A stretch of 64,000 nucleotides of DNA from Rhodothermales bacterium (GCA_040904565.1 JBBDTI010000054.1:32001-96000), one strand, 5' to 3'. Positions 8,983 through 57,530 are shown, numbered from the stretch's first letter. Numbers and translations: made by a program. The notes: generated from the letters alone by a model not told the origin.

Positions 8983-10932
8983 ATGACGTGGTACTGCCGC
9001 ACAGGCTGGATGATCGCGCTGGCGCTCCTGCTTCCGTTCGTCGCATTTGGACAGGCGGAGGTGCAGGCCTGGGGCAACGTCACCGGGATTCGCATTGAAG
9101 GGCAGCTGATGGAGTTCGAGACGAGCCTCCGGGTCGTCGGCCCAAGGTGGAATGACATCAGCCGTACGGCGAAAGAGCGGCAGCGGCCATCCTACGCGCG
9201 ACGGAACGGACGACAGTTCGTTTCGACGAGCATCGACAGCATGTTTTTCTCGCAGGTGGTTGAGAACGTGGGTGTCGGCGAAGCCCATGTAGACGTGGAG
9301 TTCACGTCGCGGGCCGATTCCAGCCTGTCGGGGGTGTATTTCAGCATCGCACTCCCCGAAGATCGATATGGAAGCGGAACCGTGCATCTCATCGATCCGG
9401 CGGACGTCCGCCTCTCCGACGCGCAGGCAGGCGGGCCGAAAGAATATATTCGGGTGAATGCACGCGGGCTCCGCGTGTCAGGCCGCGAACAACGGATCGA
9501 GGTGACGACGGATGAGCCGACGGAGATCGTCGTGCGTCGAGGTGAGGACGGAAACGTGCAGGTCTACCTGGCGATCGCGAGCGGTCCGGTATCGACGGGA
9601 CAGGTCGAACGGAAATCGTTCTTGCTGCGCGCGAACGGCCACATCGACCGGCGCCCGGTCCACGTGCGCATCGATCCCTCGCAGCCGGGACGACGGTTCG
9701 TCGGGCTGGGCGGCAACTTCCGGCTTCAGAATCCCCGGACGGACCGGCAGGTGATCGAATACAGCCTGGAAAACCTCCGGGTCGCATGGGCGCGGGTGGA
9801 CATGCCGTGGATGCTGTGGCACGCGGAAGAAGAGGTGGATCCCATCGAGGCGGCGCGTGCCGGAGAGCTGCATCCCAGAGTGGCCACATCGATGGAGATG
9901 GCGCAGCGCGCCTACGAGATGGACATCCCCGTCATGCTCGCCGCATGGTTTGCACCGGAGTGGGCCATCGAGGGCGAACGCCGCAGAGGCAGGGGACCGG
10001 ACGGCCGCTTCGGCAACGCCCTCCGCCGCGACAAGATCGACCGGATTTACGCGTCGATAGCCGACTACGTCCTTTATCTGAAGGAGGAATATGGCGTAGA
10101 GGTCGAGATGTTTTCCTTCAATGAGTCCGATCTCGGGATCGCCGTGAGGCAGACGCCGGAAGAGCACGCCCATCTACTCCGGCACCTGGGAGTACTTTTC
10201 GAGGAACGGGGGCTGAAGACGAAGCTCCTCTTGGGTGATACGGCCGACATCACGGGATACGATTTCGTCGACGTAGCCGTGGAGGACCCCGCCACGCACC
10301 CCTATATTGGTGCCGTCTCGTTCCACTCGTGGCGCGGATGGTCGAGGGAGAATCTGAGGGAATGGGACGAGGTGGCGGAACGGATGGATCTTCCTCTCGT
10401 GGTCGGGGGAGGAAGTGTCGATGCCGGAGCGTGGCGGTATCCGGACATCTTTCTCGAGGAGACGTACGCGCGAGAGGAGATCAATCTCTACATGCGAATT
10501 ATGGCTTTGTGTCAGCCGCTCACGATTCTACAGTGGCAGTTGACGGCGGACTATTCGCCGCTGGCGGGCGGGGGCATCTTCGGGAATGACGAAGATCCGC
10601 TGCACCCGACGCAGCGGTTCTGGAACCTGAAGCAGCTGGCCTCGACGCCGGAAGACGTCCGGTACCTGCCCGTCGAGGTCGATCGCTCGGATGTAACGGT
10701 GGCTGCCGTCGGTGACGTTGACCGCAGCGTCTATGCCGTGCATCTCGTCAATAACGGTCCGACGCGCAAGGTTACGCTGTCCGGCCTTCCGGACGGCCTC
10801 GACGCACTTCGCTTCTTCGTTACGGATGAAGAGCGCGGTATGGAAGAGGCGGACGCCGTGCGGGTCGTCGGCGGGGAGGCGAGCTTCACTCTTCCCGAGA
10901 CCAGCTTTACGTCGTTGATGAAATCAGAATAG
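8983..10932 (+). CDS. Secreted clan GH-A (GH30-like) glycoside hydrolase with extra N-terminal domain
   Basis: Signal peptide from MTWYCR, GLGGNF, FNESD acid/base motif, FHSW, WQLT, and a C-terminal beta-sandwich (VHLVNNG). Confidence 0.65.
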   Translation: MTWYCRTGWMIALALLLPFVAFGQAEVQAWGNVTGIRIEGQLMEFETSLRVVGPRWNDISRTAKERQRPSYARRNGRQFVSTSIDSMFFSQVVENVGVGEAHVDVEFTSRADSSLSGVYFSIALPEDRYGSGTVHLIDPADVRLSDAQAGGPKEYIRVNARGLRVSGREQRIEVTTDEPTEIVVRRGEDGNVQVYLAIASGPVSTGQVERKSFLLRANGHIDRRPVHVRIDPSQPGRRFVGLGGNFRLQNPRTDRQVIEYSLENLRVAWARVDMPWMLWHAEEEVDPIEAARAGELHPRVATSMEMAQRAYEMDIPVMLAAWFAPEWAIEGERRRGRGPDGRFGNALRRDKIDRIYASIADYVLYLKEEYGVEVEMFSFNESDLGIAVRQTPEEHAHLLRHLGVLFEERGLKTKLLLGDTADITGYDFVDVAVEDPATHPYIGAVSFHSWRGWSRENLREWDEVAERMDLPLVVGGGSVDAGAWRYPDIFLEETYAREEINLYMRIMALCQPLTILQWQLTADYSPLAGGGIFGNDEDPLHPTQRFWNLKQLASTPEDVRYLPVEVDRSDVTVAAVGDVDRSVYAVHLVNNGPTRKVTLSGLPDGLDALRFFVTDEERGMEEADAVRVVGGEASFTLPETSFTSLMKSE

Positions 10933-46319: not shown

Positions 46320-46889
46320 ATGATATCGTCATCGCCGTTCCAGGCGCTTATTTTCGATTGTGACGGGACGCTGGCCGACACGGCTCCGCTTCACTACGAT
46401 GCTCTCCTCGCGGCCTTCGCCGACGCCGGCGTCGAGTTTCCTCGATCGTGGTACCTCGAGCGCGTCGGGCTTTCCCGTCCCGCCTTCTTTAAGGAAGTCA
46501 GGGAGGTATTCGACGCCGAGATCGACGAGGAAGCGATCATGTCGAGGCACGAGCGGCATTTTCTCGGCACGGTGGCGGGCGTGGAGCCGATCGACCACAT
46601 CGTTTCCGTGGCGCGTACGTTTTCCGCATCCGTGCCGATGGCCGTCGCGTCCGGCGGGCAGCGACGGCACGTCCTCGCGACGCTTGAAGCACTCGATTTG
46701 ACGCACCTCTTCAGCACGATCGTGACGCTCGAGGACGTCGTGCGCGGGAAGCCTGCACCGGATCTGTTTCTTGAGGCGGCGCGCCGGCTCGACGTCGAGC
46801 CGGACGGATGCGTCGTCTATGAGGACAGTGAAGAAGGATTGTTGGCCGCCACCAGGGCAGGCATGCGCGCCGTGGACGTCCGCAGCTGA
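46320..46889 (+). CDS. HAD family phosphatase (beta-PGM/YqaB-like)
   Basis: FDCDGTL, VASGG, GKPAPD, YEDS..G. Confidence 0.9.
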   Translation: MISSSPFQALIFDCDGTLADTAPLHYDALLAAFADAGVEFPRSWYLERVGLSRPAFFKEVREVFDAEIDEEAIMSRHERHFLGTVAGVEPIDHIVSVARTFSASVPMAVASGGQRRHVLATLEALDLTHLFSTIVTLEDVVRGKPAPDLFLEAARRLDVEPDGCVVYEDSEEGLLAATRAGMRAVDVRS

Positions 46890-46959
46890 CGCCCCTCGCG
46901 CATTCCACGTGCCCCCTTCCGCAGCCGTCGACGCAAGGAACCTGCACCTTTTTGGATAT

Positions 46960-46972
46960 TAACAGTATGTTA
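46960..46972. promoter_or_regulatory. AT-rich inverted repeat upstream of the HlyD-VTC operon
   Basis: TAACA-gta-TGTTA within an AT-rich patch in a GC-rich background. Confidence 0.3.
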
Positions 46973-47184
46973 TCATTGCCGTATCAGCGGCTGTGTCAGA
47001 TAGGAAACGCCGGACGGTTCTTTTCGAGAGGAGGGACCGCTCGTCGATTTCATCGTGCAGGTTTATCGGCAGGCCCGGTTTAACCGGCCTTTTCCCCTAG
47101 TCGTGTACACGTCGTCGTATACAATCGTCGGGCCGTTGGGCGATCTTCGAAACGCTATCTCTAGCTTCTGCCTCTCCGTCGTAC

Positions 47185-48231
47185 ATGATCCGATTTGTGT
47201 TGAGCGTCGGGCTCGTCGCCGCGATCTGTGCGGGCATCCTTTTTCTGCCCGTGGATGTGCCGTATACGGTTTCGGGTAATGGCATCGTTATGCCGGCACA
47301 AGAATGGCTGATCGTGCGAGACGCGGGCGGGTCGATCGGAACGATGCTTCGAGACCACCTCGATGGAACCGTGCGCAGCGCCGATCTGCATCGTTTCGAA
47401 AGAGGGGATGTGGTACGGTATCGTCTCCATCCATCCATCGGAGCGCGAACGCCGATCTCGGAAGGTGATACGATCCTGACCATTCGGTCAAACGAGACGG
47501 AGCGCCGGATAGCGGCCCTGAGCGGTGATGTCGCGTCCGCCGAGTCGACCGTCTCCCTGCAGACCTCCGGGGAAAAGGAGCCCGTTGTCGTGCGTGCCGA
47601 ACGTAATCTGGCTCGTGTGATGGAGGAACTGGCGCAGGCACGCCGAGAGGTAAACCGTCTTGCGCCCCTTGCCGAACGGCGTGTCGTTGCGCAGCAGGAG
47701 CTGGATCTTGCCCAGAGCCGTGTGCAGGTGCTCGAGGCCGAGGTCGAGATGGCCAGAGCGGAGCTGGAGATGGTACGGACGGGCGCCAGAGACGAACAGG
47801 TGGACGTGGCGCGAAGCATCGCCGCCGCGCGCCGGCAGGAACTGGAAGCCCTCTCCGAACGCCGTGATATGCTGACGGTCCGCACACCGATCGGGGGCGT
47901 GGTCGTGCGTTCGTACGGTGCCGACACGCTGCTGACCGTACGCGACACGTCGTCCGCCGTCGCCGTCGTGCCGATTCCGGTGACGGACGCACGGTACGTA
48001 CGGGTGGGGCAGCCGGTCACGCTGGATATGCAGGACATGTCCGTTCGACTCGAGGGGCGTCTCGTGCGCATCGACGAGACGGTTCGTCGCCTCCAGGGAT
48101 CACAGGTTGTGATGGCCGTCGTGCGGGTAGACAGTCCAGTACGAGACACCATCGTCGGTGGTATCGTTCGCTGCACCATCTCGGCAGATTCCGTACGTCT
48201 GCTGGAGTACGCTCGCAGGAAAGTACAGTAG
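47185..48231 (+). CDS. HlyD-like periplasmic adaptor (membrane fusion protein)
   Basis: N-terminal TM segment, I.EGDTIL lipoyl half, long coiled-coil hairpin, VRTPIGGVV, VRVGQPV. Confidence 0.78.
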   Translation: MIRFVLSVGLVAAICAGILFLPVDVPYTVSGNGIVMPAQEWLIVRDAGGSIGTMLRDHLDGTVRSADLHRFERGDVVRYRLHPSIGARTPISEGDTILTIRSNETERRIAALSGDVASAESTVSLQTSGEKEPVVVRAERNLARVMEELAQARREVNRLAPLAERRVVAQQELDLAQSRVQVLEAEVEMARAELEMVRTGARDEQVDVARSIAAARRQELEALSERRDMLTVRTPIGGVVVRSYGADTLLTVRDTSSAVAVVPIPVTDARYVRVGQPVTLDMQDMSVRLEGRLVRIDETVRRLQGSQVVMAVVRVDSPVRDTIVGGIVRCTISADSVRLLEYARRKVQ

Positions 48232-48240
48232 TATCCTAGT

Positions 48241-49029
48241 ATGCGCGACGAATTCAAATATGTGCTGCCCGTGGACGCGCTGCCCGACGTACGTCGGGCC
48301 ATCGAGCCCTTTGTACGTCTGGACGAGCACGGCGTGGGCTTCGAGGAGGTGGGGTACGCCGTGCGCAGCATTTATCTCGACTCCGCCAGGCTGCGATTCT
48401 ACCACGAGAAGAGGGGGCATCTTCAGCACCGCAAGAAGATTCGAATCCGGGGATACAACGAGCCCGGGGTGGATCCTTCCGTCTTTCTGGAAATCAAGCG
48501 AAAATCGAATGCCGCCATCGCGAAAGAGCGGACGATGATGCCGTACGACGACCTGCTCGGGCTCATACAGACGGGACGGGTTGCGGCGCACATGGCTTCG
48601 TTATCGGTGGAAGACAGTGCCGTGGTTCGACGCGCCTTCTACCACATGTTCAAACACGACCTCCGGCCGACCTGTCTGGTCGTTTACGAGCGGGAGGCGT
48701 TCGAAGGGCGGTTCGACCGTACGTTTCGCATCACGCTGGACAGAAATCTGCGCGGCGTGATGTACCCGGATTGGCACGGGCTGTACGAGGAGGACGGCCT
48801 CGTCGATGCCTTGCCCGGATATTTTGTCATGGAGGTCAAGTTCGATATCCGCATGCCTGCCTGGATGCGTCAGGTCATCTCCGAGTTTGGGATCATGCAG
48901 CGGGCGCTGTCCAAATACTGTGTCTGCATCGACGCGTTCGAGCGACGAATCGATACGAAATCGGCCGTCCTGGCGTGTGCGCCGCCGATACGGACTGCCA
49001 CTCAGGTATCCGTCCACGTCACGGGTTGA
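48241..49029 (+). CDS. VTC-domain polyphosphate polymerase (CYTH/TTM fold)
   Basis: RDEFKY, VRSIYLDS, EK..RKKIRIRGY, FLEIKRK, KER, YEREAF, RITLDRNL, MEVKF, SKY. Confidence 0.92.
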   Translation: MRDEFKYVLPVDALPDVRRAIEPFVRLDEHGVGFEEVGYAVRSIYLDSARLRFYHEKRGHLQHRKKIRIRGYNEPGVDPSVFLEIKRKSNAAIAKERTMMPYDDLLGLIQTGRVAAHMASLSVEDSAVVRRAFYHMFKHDLRPTCLVVYEREAFEGRFDRTFRITLDRNLRGVMYPDWHGLYEEDGLVDALPGYFVMEVKFDIRMPAWMRQVISEFGIMQRALSKYCVCIDAFERRIDTKSAVLACAPPIRTATQVSVHVTG

Positions 49030-49039
49030 TAACGGAAGC

Positions 49040-49717
49040 ATGCTTCAAGACTTTCAGAATATATCGCTTCAGGCCGTGGATCTCGGCTTCATCCTGAGTG
49101 CCCTCGGGGTGTCGTTCGTATGTGGACTCGCGATCGCCGTGCTGTACCAGGTCACGTACAAAGGTTCGAGCTATTCACCGACCTTCGTGCGAGCGCTCAT
49201 CTTCATGGCCATGATTACGGCCATCGTCATGCTGGCCATCGGCAACAACTTGGCCAGGGCGTTCGGACTCGTCGGTGCCATGTCGATTATCCGTTTCCGA
49301 ACCGCCGTCAAGGACCCGCAGGATATCGTGTTCGTGTTTTTCGCCCTGGCGACGGGCCTGGCTGCAGGCGTGGGCATGTTCATGGTCGCCATCGTCGGTA
49401 CGACGGTAATCGGAACCGTCGTGGCCCTGGCGTCCGGGACCGATTTCGGCGTGAAGAACCGCCAGTCCTTTCTCATGCAGCTGACGTACGATGCGCCGAA
49501 GCACAACGGGGAGGCATCGTACCTGCCAATCCTCGAGAGGTATTGCAAAAAGCACGACCTCGTGAACGCCAAGAGCGCTCAGGGTGGGGACGTGCTCGAC
49601 CTTACATTTTTCGTGAAGCTGCGCCGCGACGATCAGCTTGAGGCGTTCACGCGCGATCTAGGGGGCGCGGAGCACGTCCGTCACGTCAATGTCTTCTATG
49701 ACGAACAGGAGGCGTAA
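49040..49717 (+). CDS. DUF4956 membrane protein
   Basis: IGNNLARAFGLVGAMSIIRFRTAVKDP.DI.F.F signature, several TM segments, small C-terminal soluble domain. Confidence 0.92.
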   Translation: MLQDFQNISLQAVDLGFILSALGVSFVCGLAIAVLYQVTYKGSSYSPTFVRALIFMAMITAIVMLAIGNNLARAFGLVGAMSIIRFRTAVKDPQDIVFVFFALATGLAAGVGMFMVAIVGTTVIGTVVALASGTDFGVKNRQSFLMQLTYDAPKHNGEASYLPILERYCKKHDLVNAKSAQGGDVLDLTFFVKLRRDDQLEAFTRDLGGAEHVRHVNVFYDEQEA

Positions 49718-49721
49718 CACC

Positions 49722-52700
49722 CTATCGTACGAAGGTCACCGTGCGCGTCACGCTGAACGATCGACCCGTCGCCCGCAGCAGGTAGATGCCGCTCGCGAGG
49801 CCCGCACCGTCGACCGTGATGGTGTGGAGGGCCCCTTCCGAAACAGAGCCGTCGTAGAGTACGCGCAGCCGGCGGCCCAGCATGTCGTACAGTTCTACGC
49901 GCACGGGCTGCGTCTCACTCACCGTCAGCACGCTTTCGGCGCGGGTCTGGGCCGGGTTCGGATATACGGATGTAAGTGCGTTGTCCCCACTCGGTACGGG
50001 CTCGGGCTCCGGTTCCGCGGGAGCCGCGTAGAGCACGAACGGCCGCGGCATGGCGCGCCACGCCGCCGGGTCGTCGCTGTAGGATGAGACCTCGAGGCGA
50101 AAGAGCGAGGATCCGCCGCCGTCGGCCGGCTCCGGCCAGGGCGAGGCATCGCCGAACGTGACGCGTTCTTCAAGCGTTTCCGGAATGAAGTCGGGATCGT
50201 CCGCGGGGGGCTCGTCCGGCCGGTTTAACTCCAGCATTTCTCCGTCATTGGCCAGACGGCCCTCCCATCCACCCACCAGGAGCGCGTCCCGGGTCCATCC
50301 ATAAGCCGCCCGGAACGTCTCCGCTTTCTCCGGGGCGTTCTGAGGGTCGAAGGCGACGACGAAGAGGCTGTCGCCGGCACCCAGGATCAGTCCGTCAGGG
50401 AACGTGAAGTCGACGGCTTCTCGGACGGTCCACGCCGTCAAGTCTTCGGGCTCCGCGCCGGCGTTGTAGATCCCCACGTATTCCAGGTTTTCGTTATTAC
50501 CGGGCGGATGGTACATGATTTCGCGCACGACGACGGAACCGACGCGCGGCGCGGCATTGGCTCGCCCCAGCGTGATTTCCGACAGCGGAGCCAGACGGCC
50601 GCTCCCGTCCAAACGTCTTCCCAGGGATTCTCCGTTGCGGGCCGGTCCGAAAACGACGTGATCCGCGAAACGCACGGGGCGGCCGTCGGCATCGGTTTCC
50701 ACCAGCCAGACTTCTTCACCGCGTGCGCCGTCGAGGGCGAAGTCGTTCTCCGAGCCGGACGCATTGAAGTCGGACTCATTGAAGACGATGAAGTCGCCCG
50801 GCTCGATCGTCGTGCCGTCCGGTATGTGGTACTTGTCGAACGGCAGGCCGTCGCTGAGGAACCAGCCGCTTATATCGACGGGTTCCGTCGAAGTGTTGTA
50901 GAGCTCCACGGCATCCGTCTCGGGAGGGTCCGTGTGCGACAGGATCTCGTTTACTACGACATCTACCGCGACATCCTTCCCGGTGAATGGCCCGGCGATT
51001 CCGGGCGAACCATGGTATTCGGCGCTCGCCAGCCACATCTCCGCCCGATCCGCTTCCCGAGCATGCAGGACCGGTTCTTCCGTAAGAACGAGCGAGCTGC
51101 CGGCGCCGTCCGCGCGCGACGGCCACGCTCCTCCGTCGCCATAGTCGACCGTAAAGACGATCTCACCGCTGCGGTCTGCCAGCGTAACCCGCTCCCCGCC
51201 GTTGCTCAGACGTCCGTCCTCGAAGACGCCCCCGATCTGGATGTCTGTACCGAACCGGGCTCGAAAGGCGGTGGAGTCAGACACGAGAACGGTGCGGGCG
51301 TCCGAGGCCAGGGACGTCGACCCGAACGAGAAATCGATACCGTTCGTGAAGGAGAGTCCGGCCAAAGCCACGGCACGGTCGGAACGGTTATGCAGCTCGA
51401 TGAACTCGAAATCATCGCCGTCCACCATGCCCGCGGCCTGTTCGCCGGGTGTTGGATCGGGCGGATGGTAGTAGATCTCCGAGATTACCAGGGCGCCGGG
51501 CGTGGGAGCGGCGGTGTCGACGAAATATTCGGCGTCGCTGCGGGCGGACCATTCCCCCTCGTCGGACAGAAAGCGTGCGCTGACGGTCTGCCGTCCGGCG
51601 AGCGGCAGTGCTTCACCGTCGTATTCGACGGCTGCACCTGAGACCGCACCGCCCAGCAGGCGTGGGTCGCTGCCGTCCAGCGTATAGTAGACGGATCCAC
51701 CTGACGGTGCGTCGAGCGTAACCTGGTCGCTGCCGGAAATCTCGCCGCCGTCGTGGCTGAACGCGGGTGCGTCGACGGACGGATACAGGGGGGCGGGCGT
51801 GGTGCCCGCGCCCGACTCACCGCGCACGAATCGTTGGGCCGTCTGGAGCTGTTCGAGCAATACGTCACGTCGGGCGGGGAGAATGCCGTTTCGAAGCCGG
51901 GCCACCTCCGTTTTCCAGTCCGCCAGCCCTCTCGGCGGTTCACGTTTCGCGTCGCCCCAGCGCGCCGATTCACTGATCAGCACGTCTTCGATCTCCGCCT
52001 TTCGCGTATCCATGCGGGCGACGCTCGGTGACGTCGTCATAGCACCGCCGTCGAACAGATGCCGATGCGCGAAGTCGGCGAAGCGGAACCGGTATTCCGG
52101 CGAGCCCATTAATTGCTGGTGGATCCACTGCGGGTTGCTGAACCGAAACTGATCTCCGGCGGGGAACGGTCCGGTCCGGTCGATCGACGGATCCAACAAC
52201 GCGTGCTCGCTGTCGTGCGCGAACCACTTGAAACCATGATCGCCGGTCCGATCGCGGTATCCGAAGAAATTGTTCGTACCCATGAACGGCGTGATCGGAG
52301 CGTCCGGATTGCCCGTCCAGAAAATGACGAGCATGTACTGGATCAGATTATCGGCGTCCAGCAAGACGGGATAGGAAGGATTGCCCGTTCCGTCGGGGTC
52401 GAGACCCTGGAGCCGCATATACCATGCATCGCGCTCTTCTTCGGACTCCGCGGCCGCGAGCGTGTTGACGCCGTTGTACAGATCACGCCAGGCGTCAACC
52501 TTGCCGGACGTCATTTCCATCTCGTACCCGTTGTCGAGTCCGGCCGACTTGACGACGTCGAAATCGTCGGCATTCCCCCCTATGTACGTGGCGCCATGAT
52601 GGTGGTCGGCACGTTCCTGCGTCTGAAAGAGCCCCCAGTACTGCCCGTTGATGTAGAGATGGTAGTACCGGCTGCGCGTATACGGAACGTCGATGTCTCG

Positions 52701-54665
52701 CTGCAGGTCTCGCGCAAATACGTCGCGCAGCATCGTGTTGCGCGCGTCGCCGGTAAACGCCCATGAGTAGTTCTGGCTGGTACGAAGATCGAATTTGTCG
52801 AACTCGTTCGCCCCTTCGTCGCCGAAGAGGGGATACGAGAGGAGCGGCTCCCCATACTCGCCCCGAAAGAAGATTCGAAACGCATGTTTCGGATTGGGAT
52901 CGTTGCGGCTCCAGCCGCCGCGAATTCTAATTCCGGCATTGGCCTGAAATCCGCTTCGGGGTCCGTGGTAGCTTTCGCCTCCCGTCGAGGCAGGAAAATC
53001 GCCCGGGTAAAACAGCTCGACCGAACCGGGCCGTTCCCAGTCGCGGCCGTAGCTGAGCGCGTTCGAATAGATGCCCCGCGTCGGTGAGAAGAGGGAATCG
53101 ACGTCCATCACGAGAGAGAAAGAGGGGATGCGGCCGAGCGCTTCAATAATATCGGCCTCGTTCCCGTCTACGACGTTCGGGTCCATGCCGTAATCGACGT
53201 GATTGCTGCCCCAGAAACCGGGCCATCCCTCTGGCGGCTGCCCCTCGGGCGACTGCGTCAGGACGTCGGCCGGAAAAAGATAGGTCTGGGTCACGACGCC
53301 GGATCGCTGCGCGCCTTCCTTGAAAGCGGCGGCGCGCACGACCGTCGTCTTTTCAATCCGAATGGGGTTCGTATAGGCTCGTCCGGTAGAATCCGTCGGC
53401 TCGCTCCCGTCCAGCGTGTAGCGAATGGTACTGCCGGACGTCTCGGGGAAAAGGAAGAGCGAGAAGGGCTCCTCGTAGAGGCCGTGGACGGCACTGTACG
53501 TAGGCTCATCCACAATCCCGCCGGCACCGGGAGCGTTGGGCTGCCCCGGCGTGGGCGTGGTGAAATACGTGACACCGTCGCCCGCGTGCCCGTACGAGAC
53601 GTCACCACGCTGCTCCGGATACGGCGCGAACTCGCTGACCACCACGCCGTCCGGGTCGACGAGCCCGAGGTACTCTCCGTCCTGGCTCAGGCTGAAATTT
53701 GTGTGGTACTCGCTATTTTCCAGAAATGACAGCTCCGGCGCGAGGCCGCGTCCGTCTGCCGCCGGAGCGTCTGTTTCGAACGTCAGAAAAGGGATGAGCG
53801 TCAGGTCGGACGATCCCTGATTCGCGTTGTGTACCTCGATTGCCAGAACGTTCGGCCCGGTCTGGAAGACGGACCCGGGGATGGAAATGTCGAACCGTTC
53901 CGGCGTTCCTCCCTGGTAGAGCACGGCTTCATGCAGGCCGTCCGCCGGCGTCTGATGGGTCGGATCGGTCGCTGACATGTTGCCTCGGGCGACTTCCAGT
54001 CCGTTGACATATGCGATGAACCCATCGTCATAATCGACGTGCAACAGGGCCTGTCGTATCGCGCTCGGGTCGTCTACCGTAAACGTCGTGCGCGCATAGA
54101 GCGCCATAATGCCGTCCTGCACGGACGTCTGGATGTCGGCTCCCCCCGAGCTGTTCTCATAGCCCAGGCTGCTCGGTCCCTCGTCCCACGACGAATCGTC
54201 GAAGTCCGCCGCGTACCAGTCCCCCGCAACGGATGCCGTTCCCGGATAGTATCGAAAGAGGTCTCCGCGCTGGACGATGCTGTTCCAGTTCGATGCGCCC
54301 GGCTGGCGATCCTTGCCGGAGGCGAAAACGACGAGATACTCGCCGGCCTGGAGTGTGGCGTCGGCGAAGGTCCATTGCGTTGGGTCCGACGCGTCGTCGG
54401 TCAGCGACCAGCCCGCAAGGTCGACGGCTTCGTCGGTCGGATTGTGCAGCTCGATCCAGTCGGAAAAGTCACCGTCCTCGTCCGCCAGTGTCGTGCCGTT
54501 CGAGGCCATGAACTCAGAGATGAACGGCAGGTCGCCGACTATCGCCGTGCCGTCGGTAACCACACCGTCGATCGACACGCCGTCCACCACCACGCGGTCG
54601 ATGACCGCGCCGCTGAGCGCCAGGAAGCCAAGAATAACTAGAAACAGGCGTGCGATTCGGAGCAT
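49722..54665 (-). CDS. CotH kinase family protein with lamin-tail domains, CHB_HEX/Fn3-associated domains and T9SS C-terminal domain
   Basis: Lamin-tail motifs ISEFMASN..DWIELHN, ISEIYYHP, VNEIL, VREIMYHP; two YTLDGS.P; CotH core RIRGG.SR, HLYINGQYWGL...ER, NN, HDSEH; CTD VYPNP..YDMLGR..LASGIYL. Confidence 0.88.
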   Translation of the reverse strand: MLRIARLFLVILGFLALSGAVIDRVVVDGVSIDGVVTDGTAIVGDLPFISEFMASNGTTLADEDGDFSDWIELHNPTDEAVDLAGWSLTDDASDPTQWTFADATLQAGEYLVVFASGKDRQPGASNWNSIVQRGDLFRYYPGTASVAGDWYAADFDDSSWDEGPSSLGYENSSGGADIQTSVQDGIMALYARTTFTVDDPSAIRQALLHVDYDDGFIAYVNGLEVARGNMSATDPTHQTPADGLHEAVLYQGGTPERFDISIPGSVFQTGPNVLAIEVHNANQGSSDLTLIPFLTFETDAPAADGRGLAPELSFLENSEYHTNFSLSQDGEYLGLVDPDGVVVSEFAPYPEQRGDVSYGHAGDGVTYFTTPTPGQPNAPGAGGIVDEPTYSAVHGLYEEPFSLFLFPETSGSTIRYTLDGSEPTDSTGRAYTNPIRIEKTTVVRAAAFKEGAQRSGVVTQTYLFPADVLTQSPEGQPPEGWPGFWGSNHVDYGMDPNVVDGNEADIIEALGRIPSFSLVMDVDSLFSPTRGIYSNALSYGRDWERPGSVELFYPGDFPASTGGESYHGPRSGFQANAGIRIRGGWSRNDPNPKHAFRIFFRGEYGEPLLSYPLFGDEGANEFDKFDLRTSQNYSWAFTGDARNTMLRDVFARDLQRDIDVPYTRSRYYHLYINGQYWGLFQTQERADHHHGATYIGGNADDFDVVKSAGLDNGYEMEMTSGKVDAWRDLYNGVNTLAAAESEEERDAWYMRLQGLDPDGTGNPSYPVLLDADNLIQYMLVIFWTGNPDAPITPFMGTNNFFGYRDRTGDHGFKWFAHDSEHALLDPSIDRTGPFPAGDQFRFSNPQWIHQQLMGSPEYRFRFADFAHRHLFDGGAMTTSPSVARMDTRKAEIEDVLISESARWGDAKREPPRGLADWKTEVARLRNGILPARRDVLLEQLQTAQRFVRGESGAGTTPAPLYPSVDAPAFSHDGGEISGSDQVTLDAPSGGSVYYTLDGSDPRLLGGAVSGAAVEYDGEALPLAGRQTVSARFLSDEGEWSARSDAEYFVDTAAPTPGALVISEIYYHPPDPTPGEQAAGMVDGDDFEFIELHNRSDRAVALAGLSFTNGIDFSFGSTSLASDARTVLVSDSTAFRARFGTDIQIGGVFEDGRLSNGGERVTLADRSGEIVFTVDYGDGGAWPSRADGAGSSLVLTEEPVLHAREADRAEMWLASAEYHGSPGIAGPFTGKDVAVDVVVNEILSHTDPPETDAVELYNTSTEPVDISGWFLSDGLPFDKYHIPDGTTIEPGDFIVFNESDFNASGSENDFALDGARGEEVWLVETDADGRPVRFADHVVFGPARNGESLGRRLDGSGRLAPLSEITLGRANAAPRVGSVVVREIMYHPPGNNENLEYVGIYNAGAEPEDLTAWTVREAVDFTFPDGLILGAGDSLFVVAFDPQNAPEKAETFRAAYGWTRDALLVGGWEGRLANDGEMLELNRPDEPPADDPDFIPETLEERVTFGDASPWPEPADGGGSSLFRLEVSSYSDDPAAWRAMPRPFVLYAAPAEPEPEPVPSGDNALTSVYPNPAQTRAESVLTVSETQPVRVELYDMLGRRLRVLYDGSVSEGALHTITVDGAGLASGIYLLRATGRSFSVTRTVTFVR

Positions 54666-54727
54666 GCGGATGGCTGACGGTTTAGAAAATCAGTCGGAAA
54701 GGCGGCGGTACATGCTCGCGCCGGACG

Positions 54728-55780
54728 CTAGTCCGGAGTGACGCGGCGGCCGAGCCGCGCGGCGTCATAGGCGGCAAGGGCGGCGCCGAAGGCGCGTCGT
54801 GCGTCGTGGACCAACGCAATGGGGGTGTCTCCCGTTTCGAGGCATTCGATGAGATGAGCGAGTGGTGTAGGCGATGCAGGTCCGAACGGCACGCCGGCCT
54901 TCCGCTCGTACACCCACTGATCCGCCCCGGATGCGAGCACGGCGAGGCCGGGATCCCTGAACCACTGATCGATAATCTCGCCCTCCGTACCGATGAGCTC
55001 GGTTCGAACGACGCTGTTCTGCTTCGGAGAGGGCCCCGTTTTCGCGGGGGCGTTGATCGTCCACGCTCCTTCGAGCGTCGCGGTCACGCCGTTGTCGAAT
55101 CTAAACGTGGCCATTCCCCAGTCCTCGACCGACAGGTCGGCGTGGACGAGGTTATCGATGCGCGCATCCACCTCGACGATCTTCGACCCCGTGATCCAGT
55201 GAAACAGGTCGATGGCATAGATGCCCTCGTCGATCAACGCTCCGCCCGGAACGTGCGCCGGATCGGCAAACCATCCCGGCCGACCGGACCGATACCAGTC
55301 TTCCGCGATAGACCATCGTGCGGTCTGGTGGATCACCTTCAGATCACCGATCGTGCCGGCGTCGATCCGGTCTCGCAGGGCAGATGCTTGCAGTCGCATG
55401 ATCGCTTCGAATGGAATGCACGTCACGCCGGAGGCCTCGACGGCGTCGACGATGCGATCCGCCTCGTCGAGGGTCATCGCCATGGGCTTACCGAGAATGA
55501 TGTGTTTGCCTGCTCGTGCAGCCGCAATCGCGCATTCCGCCATCTGTGAGACCGGCGGGGCGAGGTGGACGATGTCGATGTCGTTGCGCGCCAGGAGCGC
55601 GTCGTACTCCGTATGGGCATCCAGATGAAACGCGTCACAGAACTCGTTCAGCTGGTCCTGCCTGGACCACGCGGCCGCTACGAGGTCGGCTTTTCGATAC
55701 TCGGGCAGCGCTCGAGCCAGCATATAGGCCGAATACCAGTGACCCAGACCGAGAATGCCGATGCGCCAGGATTTATCCAT
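54728..55780 (-). CDS. Gfo/Idh/MocA family oxidoreductase
   Basis: Start MDKSWRIGILGLGH; GKP (variant of EKP), GGALIDEGIY, VED. Confidence 0.88.
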   Translation of the reverse strand: MDKSWRIGILGLGHWYSAYMLARALPEYRKADLVAAAWSRQDQLNEFCDAFHLDAHTEYDALLARNDIDIVHLAPPVSQMAECAIAAARAGKHIILGKPMAMTLDEADRIVDAVEASGVTCIPFEAIMRLQASALRDRIDAGTIGDLKVIHQTARWSIAEDWYRSGRPGWFADPAHVPGGALIDEGIYAIDLFHWITGSKIVEVDARIDNLVHADLSVEDWGMATFRFDNGVTATLEGAWTINAPAKTGPSPKQNSVVRTELIGTEGEIIDQWFRDPGLAVLASGADQWVYERKAGVPFGPASPTPLAHLIECLETGDTPIALVHDARRAFGAALAAYDAARLGRRVTPD

Positions 55781-55973
55781 TAAATCAGGAAACGTGGGTT
55801 GCGAATAAGTACGGCGGAGTGGATGGGATGCGAATATACGGCGTCGCCGACACGATCGACAGCCTCCGCAACGGAGGAGGCGTTCGTAGCGATCGCCGAA
55901 CTCGAGCCCTCCGCACGTGTGGCGTTCGTACCAGGTAAACCTGGCCGGCGTGGCATAGCTCTTCGGCACGATC

Positions 55974-56354
55974 TTACTGCTCATCACGTCGGCGCCGCTC
56001 GGCAACAAGATTCACGTAGACCGAGGCGGCGAACGCGGCGAGGCCGAGCGCCAGCACGCCGGCGTTTACGAAGGCCGCGTCCCAGCTTATCCCCGTCGCC
56101 AGATCCAGATAATACTTGACGTACGACGCCGGAAGATCCGTCTCCCCCAGGCGTCTTTTTACCTCCCAGTGCCAGTCCGTGCACGGACAATAGCCCCATC
56201 CGTAAAAGACGCCGAGTCCGAACCAGGACAGCAGCGTCAATCCCATCATCGCGAGATGCACGCGGCGGGTTTTCTCCCACATCCATCCCGTCAGGTTGAA
56301 TACCGTCAGTGCCGTGTGCACGACGAGGAAGGCGATGTCGAGAAAGGCATCCAT
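55974..56354 (-). CDS. DUF2784 small membrane protein
   Basis: H...FNL.GW, SWFGLG.FYGWGYCPCTDWHW. Confidence 0.8.
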   Translation of the reverse strand: MDAFLDIAFLVVHTALTVFNLTGWMWEKTRRVHLAMMGLTLLSWFGLGVFYGWGYCPCTDWHWEVKRRLGETDLPASYVKYYLDLATGISWDAAFVNAGVLALGLAAFAASVYVNLVAERRRRDEQ

Positions 56355-56540: not shown

Positions 56541-57530
56541 ATGCGCCTCAGATACGACGTCCTCACGTTCATCTGCCTGCTGTCCTGGATCGCCGCCGGC
56601 GGTGCGGGAGCACAGAGTCAGGTGACCCTCAATCCGTCGATGGACAACACCCTCTATCAGGAGTCCGGCAGTAAGAGTAACGGCGCGGGCTCGTATCTGT
56701 TTGTCGGCCGCACGAGGGGAACGGCCGGCACGGAAAGTCGCCGGGCATTGATCGCCTTCGATGTCGCGAGCTCGATTCCGGCCGGTTCGACGGTCGACAA
56801 TGTGGAGCTGGATCTGAAGGTCTCGAAATCCCCCGGTGGATCCACCGTGTTTTCCATTCACCGCCTTACCCGGTCCTGGGGTGAAGGCTCGTCGGACGCC
56901 GGGGCTCCGGGCGGTCAGGGCACACAGGCTGAAAGCGGCGACGCGACGTGGACGCACGCCTTCTTCGATACGGAAAACTGGGCTACGGCGGGTGGCGACT
57001 ACGCCGACGACGCCAGTGCGACGGTTTCGGTCGGCGGGGATGAATGGTACGCGGCCTCGTCGGACGGACTGGTCGCCGACGTGCAGGCCTGGGTGGATGA
57101 TCCCGAGGCTAATTTTGGATGGATTTTCGTCGGGGACGAGCTCACATCGGGGTCCGCGCGGCGGGTAGACAGCGGAGATAATCCGGACGAATCCGTTCGC
57201 CCGCAGCTGACGGTCTCGTACTCGACCCCTACGGCCGCCGAACAATCCGAACAGCCGGAGCACCCCGGCACGTTCGTGCTCGAGGGCAACTATCCGAATC
57301 CGTTTACGAGCTCGACCGCGATCCGCTACGAACTCGGTACCGCCCAGGAGGTGGGTCTCGAGGTCTACGACGTTACCGGCCGGCCGGTGAAAACGGTACG
57401 TCGAGGGGTCCAGGTGCCTGGACGGCACGAGATGGAGCTTCCGTCGGTCGACCTTGCTGCCGGACTCTACATCTACTGCTTGCGTACGTCGTCGCATCGC
57501 GAGTGCCGGACGTTTACCGTGCTTCGGTGA
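56541..57530 (+). CDS. DNRLRE-domain secreted protein with T9SS C-terminal domain
   Basis: Signal peptide, DNTLY, RRALIAFD, SWGEG, VQAWV..P..NFGW, RPQLTVSY; CTD NYPNPF..VYDVTGR..GLYIY. Confidence 0.8.
   Translation: MRLRYDVLTFICLLSWIAAGGAGAQSQVTLNPSMDNTLYQESGSKSNGAGSYLFVGRTRGTAGTESRRALIAFDVASSIPAGSTVDNVELDLKVSKSPGGSTVFSIHRLTRSWGEGSSDAGAPGGQGTQAESGDATWTHAFFDTENWATAGGDYADDASATVSVGGDEWYAASSDGLVADVQAWVDDPEANFGWIFVGDELTSGSARRVDSGDNPDESVRPQLTVSYSTPTAAEQSEQPEHPGTFVLEGNYPNPFTSSTAIRYELGTAQEVGLEVYDVTGRPVKTVRRGVQVPGRHEMELPSVDLAAGLYIYCLRTSSHRECRTFTVLR

What the first reader, a model, noticed from the sequence alone, without database searches (positions are those of the whole stretch)
47185..54665. Candidate polyphosphate export and extracellular phosphorylation system: HlyD + VTC + DUF4956 + T9SS-secreted CotH kinase
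Seen: a tight operon (gaps of 9 and 10 bp) of adaptor, VTC-domain enzyme with its basic tunnel motifs intact, and DUF4956, ending 4 bp from the stop of a convergent 1647-aa CotH protein with a T9SS signal. Known: the yeast VTC complex couples polyP synthesis to membrane translocation; CotH proteins are atypical kinases acting outside the cytoplasm; from recollection, VTC, DUF4956 and CotH genes often co-occur in bacteria without an established function. Inference: VTC makes polyP, DUF4956 is the channel, the adaptor bridges the periplasm, and surface CotH uses polyP as phosphoryl donor where ATP is scarce, to modify surface proteins or glycans or to nucleate mineral. No ABC/RND pump or TolC is adjacent, so the adaptor has no conventional partner here.
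Basis: partly seen in the sequence, partly recalled or inferred. Interest (0 to 1): 0.85.

Follow-up and report, generated by a model that had tools for sequence, protein, structure and literature searches.

The report
Candidate bacterial polyphosphate export cassette
A sediment bacterium carries a conserved three-gene unit (periplasmic adaptor, polyphosphate-polymerase-like enzyme, small membrane protein) next to a secreted CotH kinase; comparative genomics suggests a machine that makes a phosphate polymer and sends it out of the cell, but nothing has been tested at the bench.

Summary
All four genes, the 9, 10 and 4 bp gaps and the domains are as described.

**The cassette.** Adaptor-VTC-DUF4956 is a conserved, translationally tight unit.
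- The adaptor lies directly upstream of VTC in 70 of 80 related loci.
- All 18 strong adaptor matches in 201 genomes of the phylum sit beside a VTC gene.
- It is missing from all five testable Chloroflexota loci.

**The parts.**
- The VTC protein keeps the Vtc4 residues needed for polyphosphate synthesis.
- The adaptor folds like EmrA and MacA. It carries the TolC-binding RxxxLxxxxxxS motif at its hairpin tip, with Ala for Ser in the window.
- DUF4956 is MgtC-like: five helices plus an ACT-like domain.

**The CotH link.**
- CotH is found in 34 of 34 VTC-bearing genomes, against 48 of 167 without VTC.
- A CotH gene directly flanks the cassette in 26 of 80 loci.
- Long orthologues of this window's CotH also occur in eight genomes without VTC.

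**Reading.** The best reading is polymerisation-coupled export of polyphosphate serving secreted CotH kinases. Polyphosphate as the kinase's phosphoryl donor remains speculation. The cotH/VTC/DUF4956 gene set is already in print, without a function. The adaptor and the export logic were not found in print.

The parts
47185..48231 (+). HlyD/EmrA/MacA-type periplasmic adaptor (348 aa): N-terminal membrane helix (residues 2-20), lipoyl and beta-barrel strands, long alpha-hairpin (residues 103-228)
   Evidence: Pfam HlyD_3 8.1e-07. AF2 model, pLDDT 91. Foldseek top hits EmrA 8zar 2.6e-16 and MacA 3fpp/5nik. Orthologue directly upstream of VTC in 70 of 80 loci.
47656..47691 (+). Hairpin-tip motif R158-x3-L162-x6-A169, the counterpart of the TolC-binding RLS motif (RxxxLxxxxxxS)
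   Evidence: In alignment A5 (56 sequences): R 53 of 56; L 52 of 56; position 169 is S 34, A 14, T 5, P 3. The tip lies between helices 131-164 and 170-199 of the model. Motif definition and S-to-A tolerance come from passages of PMC3391258.
48241..49029 (+). VTC-domain triphosphate-tunnel enzyme (262 aa), soluble, with no SPX or membrane domain; candidate polyphosphate polymerase
   Evidence: Pfam VTC 3.7e-40. Profile hits Vtc4 catalytic domain 3g3q at 1.4e-17. K6, R68, R70, K86, Y149, R151 and E198 align to Vtc4 K200, R264, R266, K281, Y359, R361 and E426. They are invariant or nearly invariant in 64 sequences, as is K225.
49040..49717 (+). DUF4956 membrane protein (225 aa): five helices (15-133) plus a C-terminal ACT-like domain (143-221); MgtC/SapB-like
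   Evidence: Pfam DUF4956 2.2e-15. AF2 model, pLDDT 86. C-terminal domain matches ACT-type folds at VIA Z 8-10, including MgtC C-domains 7qa5 (Z 8.8) and 2lqj (Z 8.4). 67 of 67 family members give weak Pfam MgtC hits over the helical part. Directly downstream of VTC in 75 of 80 loci.
49722..54665 (-). 1647-aa secreted multidomain CotH-family kinase; the only CotH match in this genome
   Evidence: Pfam domains. Single CotH match in G000. A hydrophobic N-terminus was read from the translation.
51888..52931 (-). CotH kinase domain (residues 579-926), keeping D788, N799 and D818
   Evidence: Profile of 34 CotH domains hits B. cereus CotH 5jd9 at 1.5e-42. D818 is invariant 34 of 34; D788 is kept in 29 of 33 and N799 in 29 of 34. 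A usually conserved Asp (30 of 34) is Tyr633 here.
49746..49967 (-). T9SS type A C-terminal sorting domain (residues 1567-1640)
   Evidence: TIGR04183 at 8.6e-09, 35.3 bits against a cut-off of 23. An SprA translocon gene is present in the genome.
54279..54524 (-). First of four lamin-tail (LTD) domains (residues 48-129). Three more follow the kinase domain; their characteristic motifs start near residues 1061, 1238 and 1380.
   Evidence: Pfam LTD 3.3e-58, 4 stretches. Motif positions.

Best explanation
The three plus-strand genes form one envelope machine.
- The soluble VTC-like triphosphate-tunnel enzyme polymerises phosphate from a nucleoside triphosphate at the cytoplasmic face of the inner membrane.
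- The MgtC-like DUF4956 protein is its membrane partner and the route across the inner membrane.
- The membrane-anchored EmrA/MacA-like adaptor carries the product across the periplasm to a TolC-family channel encoded elsewhere.

Polymerisation would drive export, as in the eukaryotic VTC complex and in synthase-dependent polysaccharide secretion. The exported polymer would serve secreted CotH-family kinases. In this genome that is the adjacent T9SS-displayed 1647-aa protein, the only CotH match.

Shown here: the module, its conservation, the retained polymerase residues, the adaptor fold and tip motif, and the one-way genome dependence of VTC on CotH.

Inferred: polyP as the product, DUF4956 as the conduit, TolC docking, and any chemical use of polyP by CotH.
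For: 1. Module.
- Among 40 relatives, a strong adaptor orthologue (E <= 2.5e-38) occurs in 8 genomes.
- All 8 have VTC, in the order adaptor-VTC-DUF4956.
- In 80 loci from several phyla the adaptor is directly upstream of VTC in 70, and DUF4956 directly downstream in 75, mostly with gaps or overlaps of a few bases.

2. Specificity.
- In 201 genomes of the phylum there are 18 full-length adaptor matches (E <= 2e-41) in 17 genomes. Every one abuts a VTC match.
- All weaker matches (E >= 1.6e-32) cover only the generic adaptor core.

3. Envelope logic.
- The adaptor is absent from all 5 testable Chloroflexota-labelled loci.
- It is not mentioned in the passages I read on the Gram-positive loci.
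- Two other Bacteroidota loci carry a different HlyD-family adaptor after DUF4956.
- Two of five checked genomes carry a DUF2490 protein with a signal-peptide-like start right after DUF4956.

4. Enzyme.
- Seven Vtc4 residues shown by mutation to be needed for polyP synthesis are kept.
- S224-K225, presumed equal to S457-K458, are nearly invariant and invariant. K458 is the residue lost in the inactive Vtc2/Vtc3.

5. Adaptor.
- EmrA/MacA-like fold with a membrane anchor and a long hairpin.
- R and L of the TolC-binding motif sit at the tip.
- The genome has OEP-family genes, giving 21 repeat matches.

6. CotH link.
- CotH is present in 34 of 34 VTC-bearing genomes, against 48 of 167 without VTC.
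- By genus among the 40 relatives and G000: 9 of 9 against 3 of 21.
- The control genomes that ring for VTC and DUF4956 are the same 3 of 14, and all three ring for CotH.
- CotH is within 10 kb in 30 of 80 loci and directly flanking in 26, including four convergent cases like this window.

7. PPK1 is also present in the genome, so the VTC enzyme is an extra, specialised system rather than the cell's only polyP synthase.
Against: - No bacterial VTC-domain protein has been assayed in any paper I found. The fold family also includes hydrolases and cyclases.
- DUF4956 resembles MgtC, which to my knowledge (recalled) is a regulator of other membrane proteins and not a transporter.
- In the model DUF4956 exposes almost nothing to the periplasm, so adaptor contact would have to be helix to helix.
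- No outer-membrane factor is encoded in any of the loci. After the three cassette genes, CotH is the only frequent neighbour.
- 17 of 34 VTC-bearing genomes of the phylum lack this adaptor.
- The window's adaptor has Ala at the Ser position of the tip motif.
- Open frames of 1,656-1,718 aa matching this CotH type occur in 10 of 12 genomes of genus g8. Only 2 of those 12 have VTC, and there the gene lies more than 1 Mb from the cassette.
- The CotH active-site residues are those of the ATP-using enzyme.
- The authors of the S. intermedius preprint suggested the polyP may stay in the cytoplasm.
Confidence: 0.45

Rival explanations
1. Cytoplasmic homeostasis module. VTC makes or turns over polyP or triphosphate inside the cell. 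DUF4956, like MgtC, is a membrane-bound regulator or sensor (through its ACT-like domain) of phosphate and ATP balance. The adaptor tethers or regulates it. CotH co-occurs only because all belong to one biofilm or envelope regulon.
For: - DUF4956 is MgtC-like in its helical part (67 of 67 weak Pfam MgtC hits) and in its ACT-like C-domain.
- The S. intermedius preprint proposes cytoplasmic polyP (passages).
- No pore or channel evidence was obtained here.
Against: - It does not explain why a dedicated EmrA/MacA-like adaptor with a TolC-type tip motif is welded to the pair in 70 of 80 loci.
- It does not explain why other lineages add a different adaptor or a DUF2490 protein.
- It does not explain why the pair is never seen without a secreted CotH (34 of 34).
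- PPK1 already provides cytoplasmic polyP synthesis.
Confidence: 0.2
2. The VTC-like enzyme is not a polymerase here. It could be a triphosphatase or polyphosphatase, or it could make another phosphoanhydride product. In that case the cassette would export or import something other than polyP.
For: - The triphosphate-tunnel fold supports several chemistries (abstract of PMC4641920 in the listing).
- The match to Vtc4 is remote (profile E 1.4e-17).
- The SPX and membrane domains of Vtc4 are absent.
Against: - All directly alignable polymerase residues are kept.
- The Lys presumed to equal K458, which separates active Vtc4 from inactive Vtc2/3, is invariant in 64 of 64 sequences.
- Pfam places the protein in VTC over 231 of 235 model positions.
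Confidence: 0.15
3. In this window the convergent CotH is a chance neighbour. The cassette works without it, and this large LTD-CotH protein has its own role on the cell surface, for example carbohydrate-related.
For: - Long orthologues of this CotH occur in 8 g8 genomes without a VTC match, and far from the cassette in the two g8 genomes that have it.
- Its neighbours here are carbohydrate enzymes.
- It carries CHB_HEX_C/Fn3_assoc domains.
Against: - It is the only CotH match in this genome, while every one of 34 VTC-bearing genomes has a CotH.
- CotH proteins with the same domain set (LTD, CHB_HEX_C, T9SS tail) flank the cassette in 28 loci.
- A protein whose kinase domain is 55% identical lies 5.7 kb from the cassette in L043.
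- In genus g8, both cassette-bearing genomes also carry an extra 944-aa CotH 15-26 kb from the cassette. Only one of the ten others has a similar protein (947 aa, in G012).
Confidence: 0.12

Closest known systems
Eukaryotic VTC complex (Vtc4/Vtc3 or Vtc2/Vtc1), which couples polyP synthesis to membrane translocation
   Same: - The catalytic domain is homologous (Pfam VTC; PDB 3g3q and 8i6v).
- The residues that hold the triphosphate and Mn2+ are the same.
- It offers the same proposed logic of synthesis coupled to transit through a membrane partner.
   Different: - There is no SPX sensor domain and no fused three-helix membrane domain or Vtc1-type subunit (only the VTC domain is found).
- The membrane partner is an unrelated MgtC-like protein with an ACT-like domain.
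- A periplasmic adaptor is added.
- The target compartment is the cell exterior, not a vacuole.
Tripartite efflux and type I secretion systems (EmrAB-TolC, MacAB-TolC, HlyBD-TolC)
   Same: - The adaptor has the same fold, an N-terminal membrane anchor and a long hairpin.
- It carries the R and L of the RLS tip motif that binds TolC.
   Different: - There is no ABC, MFS or RND transporter. The only membrane protein in the operon is DUF4956, and the only enzyme is a polymerase-like protein.
- No outer-membrane factor is linked.
- Energy would come from polymerisation rather than from ATP hydrolysis by a pump or from proton flow.
The cotH / poly-phosphate polymerase / DUF4956 accessory gene set next to pel operons in Streptococci, Clostridia and Bifidobacteria (10.1101/768473; 10.1101/2024.04.20.589940)
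   Same: - The same three families are linked.
- CotH is predicted to be secreted.
- The VTC-like protein is noted to keep its catalytic residues.
- DUF4956 is described as four membrane segments plus an ACT domain (passages).
   Different: - Those loci sit beside an exopolysaccharide operon, and the passages I read mention no adaptor.
- Here the pair has a dedicated adaptor, the CotH is a T9SS cargo with LTD domains, and no pel genes are adjacent.
- The function is unknown in both.
MgtC/SapB family
   Same: It has a five-helix membrane part followed by a cytoplasmic ACT-like domain. There is weak but consistent sequence similarity.
   Different: The window protein scores 15.3 bits against the Pfam MgtC cut-off of 31.4. 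Its operon partners are entirely different. MgtC is known (recalled) as a regulator of other membrane proteins, not as part of a synthase.

Membership tests
Vtc4-type polyphosphate polymerase (VTC domain, triphosphate tunnel) | Match to the Pfam VTC domain above its curated cut-off, over the whole domain | tested here: met
   138.4 bits against a cut-off of 23; residues 2-232 against model positions 2-233 of 235
Vtc4-type polyphosphate polymerase (VTC domain, triphosphate tunnel) | Residues K200, R264, R266, K281, Y359, R361 and E426, which hold the triphosphate and Mn2+ and are needed for polyP synthesis | tested here: met
   HMMER alignment to Vtc4 chains gives window K6, R68, R70, K86, Y149, R151 and E198. 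The residue list comes from passages of 10.1101/2023.01.27.525886. These positions are invariant or nearly invariant in 64 sequences.
Vtc4-type polyphosphate polymerase (VTC domain, triphosphate tunnel) | S457 and K458 (K458 separates active Vtc4 from inactive Vtc2/Vtc3) | tested here: inconclusive
   The HMMER alignments stop about six residues before this site. Window S224-K225 lie at the expected distance (within one residue). K225 is invariant in 64 of 64 and S224 is nearly invariant. The equivalence is inferred.
Vtc4-type polyphosphate polymerase (VTC domain, triphosphate tunnel) | SPX domain, fused membrane domain, and Vtc1-type partner | tested here: not met
   Only the VTC domain is found in the 262-aa protein. 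The neighbour is DUF4956, not a Vtc1-type protein.
Vtc4-type polyphosphate polymerase (VTC domain, triphosphate tunnel) | Synthesis of polyP from ATP | not testable with these tools
   Needs an enzyme assay.
Periplasmic adaptor (membrane fusion protein) of tripartite exporters | Adaptor fold: lipoyl and barrel domains with an alpha-hairpin, and an N-terminal anchor | tested here: met
   AF2 model, pLDDT 91. Foldseek: EmrA 8zar 2.6e-16, MacA 3fpp 9.2e-16. Pfam HlyD_3 at 30.2 bits against a cut-off of 22.2.
Periplasmic adaptor (membrane fusion protein) of tripartite exporters | RLS motif (RxxxLxxxxxxS) at the hairpin tip, for TolC binding | tested here: inconclusive
   R158 and L162 are present with the right spacing at the modelled tip. 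The third position is Ala in the window (S in 34, A in 14, T in 5 of 56). An S-to-A change kept some activity in MacA (passages of PMC3391258).
Periplasmic adaptor (membrane fusion protein) of tripartite exporters | Cognate ABC, MFS or RND inner-membrane transporter encoded alongside | tested here: not met
   None within about 5 kb in the window. None is recurrent in the 80 loci.
MgtC/SapB family | Match to the Pfam MgtC domain above its cut-off | tested here: not met
   Window protein: 15.3 bits against a cut-off of 31.4 (E 0.027). All 67 family members hit weakly, best 2.1e-06. This is likeness without membership.
MgtC/SapB family | C-terminal ACT-like domain | tested here: met
   VIA-align: Z 8.8 to 7qa5 and Z 8.4 to 2lqj (MgtC C-domains), among many ACT-type folds at Z 8-10
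CotH kinase family | Pfam CotH domain above its cut-off, and likeness to the solved CotH structure | tested here: met
   72.7 bits against a cut-off of 23.8. A profile of 34 domains that includes the window's hits 5jd9 at 1.5e-42.
CotH kinase family | The two Asp residues whose change inactivates B. subtilis CotH (D228, D251) | tested here: met
   D788 and D818 fall in the columns that align to the D..HN loop and the WDxD motif of 5jd9. D228Q and D251A are inactive according to passages of PMC7821199. The mapping of B. subtilis numbers onto the B. cereus chain is my inference.
T9SS cargo | Type A C-terminal sorting domain, an N-terminal signal, and a T9SS in the genome | tested here: met
   TIGR04183 at 35.3 bits against a cut-off of 23. 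A hydrophobic N-terminus was read by eye. SprA_N matches at 6.7e-91 in a 2679-aa frame.

The most novel reading that the evidence does not exclude
This is a secretion system of a new type. A polymerase-driven tripartite machine (VTC-like synthase, MgtC-like inner-membrane conduit, TolC-docking adaptor) extrudes inorganic polyphosphate through both membranes. The polymer then serves as the extracellular phosphoryl currency for surface-displayed CotH kinases, which have no ATP outside the cell. The kinases would either use it as donor or attach it to surface proteins or glycans. If so, this would be the missing source of PPK-independent extracellular polyP in bacteria.
Probability: 0.2. Interest if true: 0.95.

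Novelty: new variant of a known kind. Interest (0 to 1): 0.72.

Why it matters
Two open questions become directly testable with a three-gene cassette.
- **How does polyP get outside bacteria?** A 2026 preprint reports extracellular polyP made without PPK1 or PPK2, and its source is unknown.
- **How do secreted CotH-family kinases find a phosphoryl donor where ATP is scarce?**

The cassette would also be the first bacterial counterpart of the eukaryotic coupling of polyP synthesis to membrane transit. It would be built from different membrane parts and would borrow the adaptor of drug-efflux pumps. It also gives a first functional context for DUF4956, and possibly a hint for the MgtC family.

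The strict rule that VTC never occurs without CotH (34 of 34 in the phylum sample; 3 of 3 control genomes from other phyla) is a strong lead. It costs little to test in Bacteroides or a flavobacterium.

Tried and rejected
- **Complex prediction of VTC with DUF4956.** No verdict (score 0.01). It says nothing either way.
- **RNA evidence.** No RNA holder was listed. There are four DNA runs of one sediment study, two of which may be the source.
- **Promoter and terminator scan of 46500-56300.** One promoter-like site against 2.4 expected, and 10 terminator-like sites against 6.0 expected. None lies between the convergent stops. Not informative for this phylum.
- **phmmer of the window CotH domain alone against PDB sequences.** No hit. 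A profile was needed.
- **Fold searches of the DUF4956 model.** Only the C-terminal domain matched. The helical part was barely tested and was not folded alone, so I make no claim about its fold.
- **Fused forms.** Only single sequences turned up.
  - One 481-aa VTC+DUF4956 protein, whose VTC match stops at model position 175 of 235. It may be a gene-calling artefact.
  - One GT2 glycosyltransferase+VTC protein (718 aa).
  - One DUF4956+phytase-like protein (590 aa).
  - These are too few to count as evidence of binding, and the tool warns that finding few is weak evidence.
- **DUF2490 in the window's own genome.** No match.
- **'Adaptor only in double-membrane bacteria' as a strict rule.** Rejected, because 17 of 34 VTC-bearing genomes of the phylum lack this adaptor.
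- **Literature.**
  - Searches for DUF4956, CotH+VTC+polyphosphate, VTC domain in bacteria and extracellular polyphosphate export found no paper that proposes an adaptor-coupled export system or polyP as a CotH donor.
  - A search for CotH+polyP matched mostly unrelated words.
  - A search for 'CotH kinase' or T9SS listed only T9SS papers.
  - PMC12419801 held nothing relevant.
Figures S4 and S5 of 10.1101/768473 were seen as legends only, so an adaptor drawn there would have escaped me.
- **Rows dropped.**
  - Alignments A3, A4 and A5 used length-filtered subsets: 66 of 75 DUF4956, 63 of 80 VTC and 55 of 72 adaptor ORFs, plus the window's own.
  - The 80 loci are the best 80 of 574 relatives, so they are biased towards VTC proteins like the window's.
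  - ORFs were called from the first start codon, so some are overlong.

Full report
**What is there**

- 47185-48231 (+), 348 aa.
- 48241-49029 (+), 262 aa.
- 49040-49717 (+), 225 aa.
- 49722-54665 (-), 1647 aa.

The gaps are 9 bp and 10 bp, and 4 bp separate the two convergent stop codons.

Pfam names the first three as HlyD_3 (8.1e-07), VTC (3.7e-40, nearly the whole domain) and DUF4956 (2.2e-15). The fourth is a multidomain protein with four LTD domains, CHB_HEX_C/Fn3_assoc, a CotH kinase domain (residues 579-926) and a T9SS sorting tail. The tail passes the NCBIfam cut-off.

The neighbours are an aminotransferase, a CN hydrolase, a beta-propeller protein, a 3-keto-disaccharide hydrolase and a HAD hydrolase on one side. 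On the other side lie a GFO/IDH/MocA oxidoreductase, a T9SS-tail protein, a methyltransferase and a sulfatase. There is no pump and no TolC.

In the 4.02-Mb genome (94.9% complete) each of VTC, DUF4956 and CotH has one match, all at this place.
- The genome also has PPK1, the T9SS translocon SprA and OEP/TolC-family genes on other contigs (21 repeat matches).
- The named loci with the closest VTC proteins are labelled Rhodothermales.
- The DNA is held by runs of a sediment metagenome study.

**The three plus-strand genes are one conserved module**

Among 40 relatives (18 of the same family, 22 of the same order):
- A strong orthologue of the adaptor (E <= 2.5e-38) occurs in 8 genomes. The next-best match is 2.2e-11.
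- VTC occurs in 9: those 8 plus one more.
- In all 8 the order is adaptor-VTC-DUF4956, contiguous on one strand.

A scan of one genome per species with a VTC profile gave 574 relatives among 600 stretches. The labels include Rhodothermales, Ignavibacteriales, Bacteroidales, Saprospiraceae, Latescibacterota, Calditrichia, Zixibacteria, Krumholzibacteriia, Gemmatimonadetes and six Chloroflexota.

I then searched these loci with HMMs built from the nine seed loci.
- DUF4956 lies directly downstream of VTC in 75 of 80. Two of the five misses have under 700 bp of downstream sequence.
- The adaptor lies directly upstream in 70 of 80, usually with a gap or overlap of a few bases.
- One more locus has the adaptor 7.3 kb away on the other strand.
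- Nine loci have no adaptor match. Two have too little upstream sequence to tell. Five are Chloroflexota-labelled with at least 1,991 bp upstream. Two are Bacteroidota-labelled and also lack DUF4956.

In an even sample of 201 genomes of the phylum:
- VTC is in 34.
- The adaptor profile gives 18 full-length matches at E <= 2e-41 in 17 genomes. Each one lies next to a VTC match.
- Every weaker match (E >= 1.6e-32) covers only the generic adaptor core.

So this adaptor subfamily exists only as part of the cassette. The converse does not hold: 17 of the 34 VTC-bearing genomes lack it.

I fetched 12 of those 17 loci.
- Two (L120, L128) have a different HlyD-family adaptor directly after DUF4956.
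- Nine belong to a more distant VTC-DUF4956 type.
- In two of five checked genomes of that type, DUF4956 is followed at once by a DUF2490 protein with a signal-peptide-like start.
- A table in PMC10434189 lists the same DUF4956-DUF2490 pair in B. thetaiotaomicron.

**What each part looks like**

*VTC enzyme.*
- Profiles of the VTC protein hit only Vtc4, Vtc2 and Vtc3 chains in the PDB (3g3q at 1.4e-17).
- The cryo-EM preprint on yeast VTC lists K200, R264, R266, K281, R361, K458, S457, Y359 and E426 as needed for polyP synthesis. It notes that K458 is Ile or Leu in the inactive Vtc2 and Vtc3 (passages).
- The alignments place window K6, R68, R70, K86, Y149, R151 and E198 on seven of these. All are invariant or nearly invariant in 64 sequences.
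- The alignment stops just short of S457-K458. Window S224-K225 lie at the right distance. K225 is invariant and S224 nearly so. I treat this equivalence as inferred.
- The protein has no SPX domain and no membrane domain.

*DUF4956.*
- The model (pLDDT 86) has five helices (residues 15-133) and a beta-alpha-beta-beta-alpha-beta domain (143-221).
- That C-terminal domain matches ACT-type folds at Z 8-10, among them the C-terminal domains of two MgtC proteins.
- All 67 family members give weak Pfam MgtC hits over the helical part. The best is 2.1e-06; the window's is 0.027, below the cut-off.
- DUF4956 is therefore MgtC-like, but it is not a member by Pfam's threshold.
- Its most conserved stretch runs from about residue 66 to 112 and includes invariant N70, R85 and R87 and nearly invariant R73. 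Whether these residues line a path for an anion is not known.

*Adaptor.*
- The model (pLDDT 91) has a membrane helix (2-20), barrel and lipoyl strands, and one long hairpin (103-228).
- Foldseek's best matches are EmrA and MacA within their TolC complexes.
- At the modelled tip the family keeps R158 (53 of 56) and L162 (52 of 56). Position 169 is S in 34, A in 14 and T in 5.
- This is the RxxxLxxxxxxS motif that binds TolC in MacA, AcrA and MexA, and as RLT in HlyD. The window has Ala at the third position, a change that kept some activity in MacA.

*CotH.*
- A profile of 34 domains that includes the window's hits B. cereus CotH at 1.5e-42.
- The window keeps D788, N799 and D818. These fall in the columns of the two Asp residues whose change inactivates the B. 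subtilis enzyme.
- One usually conserved Asp (30 of 34) is Tyr633 in the window and its closest relative.

**The link to CotH**

At genome level the link is strict and runs one way.
- In the phylum sample CotH is in 82 of 201 genomes. That is all 34 with VTC and 48 of the 167 without.
- Among the relatives, by genus, CotH is found in 9 of 9 VTC-bearing genera and in 3 of 21 others.
- The tool's 14 control genomes ring for VTC and DUF4956 in the same three: B. thetaiotaomicron, C. glutamicum and M. acetivorans. All three ring for CotH.
- Related genomes are not independent, so I give no P value.

At locus level:
- After the three cassette genes, the only frequent neighbour family in the 80 loci is a CotH protein with LTD, CHB_HEX_C and T9SS-tail domains (28 loci).
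- With a CotH HMM, a CotH ORF lies within 10 kb in 30 of 80 loci.
- It directly flanks the cassette in 26. Fourteen follow DUF4956 on the same strand, seven precede the adaptor on the same strand, one precedes VTC directly, and four are convergent as in the window.

Against a tie to this particular CotH:
- Open frames of 1,656-1,718 aa of the window's type occur in 10 of 12 genomes of genus g8.
- Only two of those 12 have VTC, and there the gene lies more than 1 Mb from the cassette.
- Those two do carry an extra 944-aa CotH 15-26 kb from the cassette. Only one of the ten others has a similar protein (947 aa, in G012).
- In the window's genome the adjacent gene is the only CotH match.

**How it most likely works**

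The combination points to transit of a product made in the cytoplasm to the place where CotH sits.
- The polymerase-like enzyme keeps its catalytic residues.
- It is always paired with one small membrane protein.
- It is joined in double-membrane lineages by a dedicated TolC-type adaptor, or elsewhere by another adaptor or a DUF2490 protein.
- It is never found without a secreted kinase.

I commit to polymerisation-coupled export of polyphosphate as the best explanation, at confidence 0.45.
- Shown: the module, the residues, the folds, the motif and the co-occurrence.
- Inferred: the product, the conduit, the docking to TolC, and what CotH does with the polymer.

But the active site looks like that of the ATP-using enzyme, and nothing here tests the chemistry. 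I put that idea at about 0.2.

The rivals are:
- A cytoplasmic, MgtC-like homeostasis role.
- A non-polymerase chemistry for the VTC enzyme.
- A chance neighbour in this one genome.

**What is known**

- The cotH / poly-phosphate polymerase / DUF4956 set was described as accessory genes beside pel operons of Streptococci, Clostridia and Bifidobacteria, with no function assigned (passages of 10.1101/768473).
- A later preprint noted the kept catalytic residues and the 4-TM plus ACT build of the membrane protein. It suggested the polyP may stay inside the cell (10.1101/2024.04.20.589940).
- A 2026 preprint reports PPK-independent extracellular polyP in the B. cereus group, of unknown origin. It says no VTC4 homologue is present there (PMC13484657).

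My searches found nothing on any of the following:
- the adaptor;
- its tip motif;
- the MgtC likeness as such;
- the rule that VTC never occurs without CotH;
- an export model.

Supplements could not be read.

**Verdict**

I rate it a new variant of known kinds: a VTC-type synthase joined to tripartite-exporter parts. The gene trio is already known but unexplained. Interest is 0.72.

Noticed in passing
P0005 (from; not in the window): A single 718-aa protein fuses a processive-type GT2 glycosyltransferase (residues 52-360) to a complete VTC domain (474-703). This echoes the published placement of the gene set beside exopolysaccharide operons.
   Followed up: partly
P0007 and L112:11408-12178 (+): A DUF4956 protein is fused to a phytase-like (PF13449) domain. 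A separate SdiA-regulated/phytase-like protein lies directly after DUF4956 in 6 of the 80 loci (cluster 10; Pfam).
   Followed up: partly
L125:10853-11575 (+); G124:C216:89593-90114: In a more distant VTC-DUF4956 type of other Bacteroidota, a DUF2490 protein with a signal-peptide-like start follows DUF4956 directly (2 of 5 genomes checked). A small lipoprotein-like ORF precedes VTC in L125, L126 and L129.
   Followed up: partly
L120:7119-16519 (-): Another gene order: two CotH genes (1095 and 1114 aa), then VTC, DUF4956, and a different HlyD-family adaptor (373 aa) downstream. L128 shares the downstream adaptor.
   Followed up: partly
G094: One genome has three VTC matches. Two of them have the adaptor directly upstream.
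   Followed up: no
window 56541-57530 (+): A 329-aa ORF whose only Pfam match is a T9SS sorting tail, just below the Pfam cut-off (25.6 bits against 27). It overlaps a 325-aa ORF on the other strand that has no match.
   Followed up: no
window 54728-56008 (-): A GFO/IDH/MocA oxidoreductase lies 62 bp upstream of the CotH start on the same strand and could be co-transcribed with it. It was not among the frequent neighbour clusters in the related loci.
   Followed up: partly
window 47097-48371 (-) and other long antisense ORFs: Long ORFs without any Pfam match overlap the real genes on the opposite strand, as expected at 62% G+C. They are not genes.
   Followed up: yes
L041:about 9000-10000 (+): The adaptor is split into two ORFs (187 and 177 aa) in one Rhodothermales-labelled locus. 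This may be a frameshift or an assembly error.
   Followed up: no
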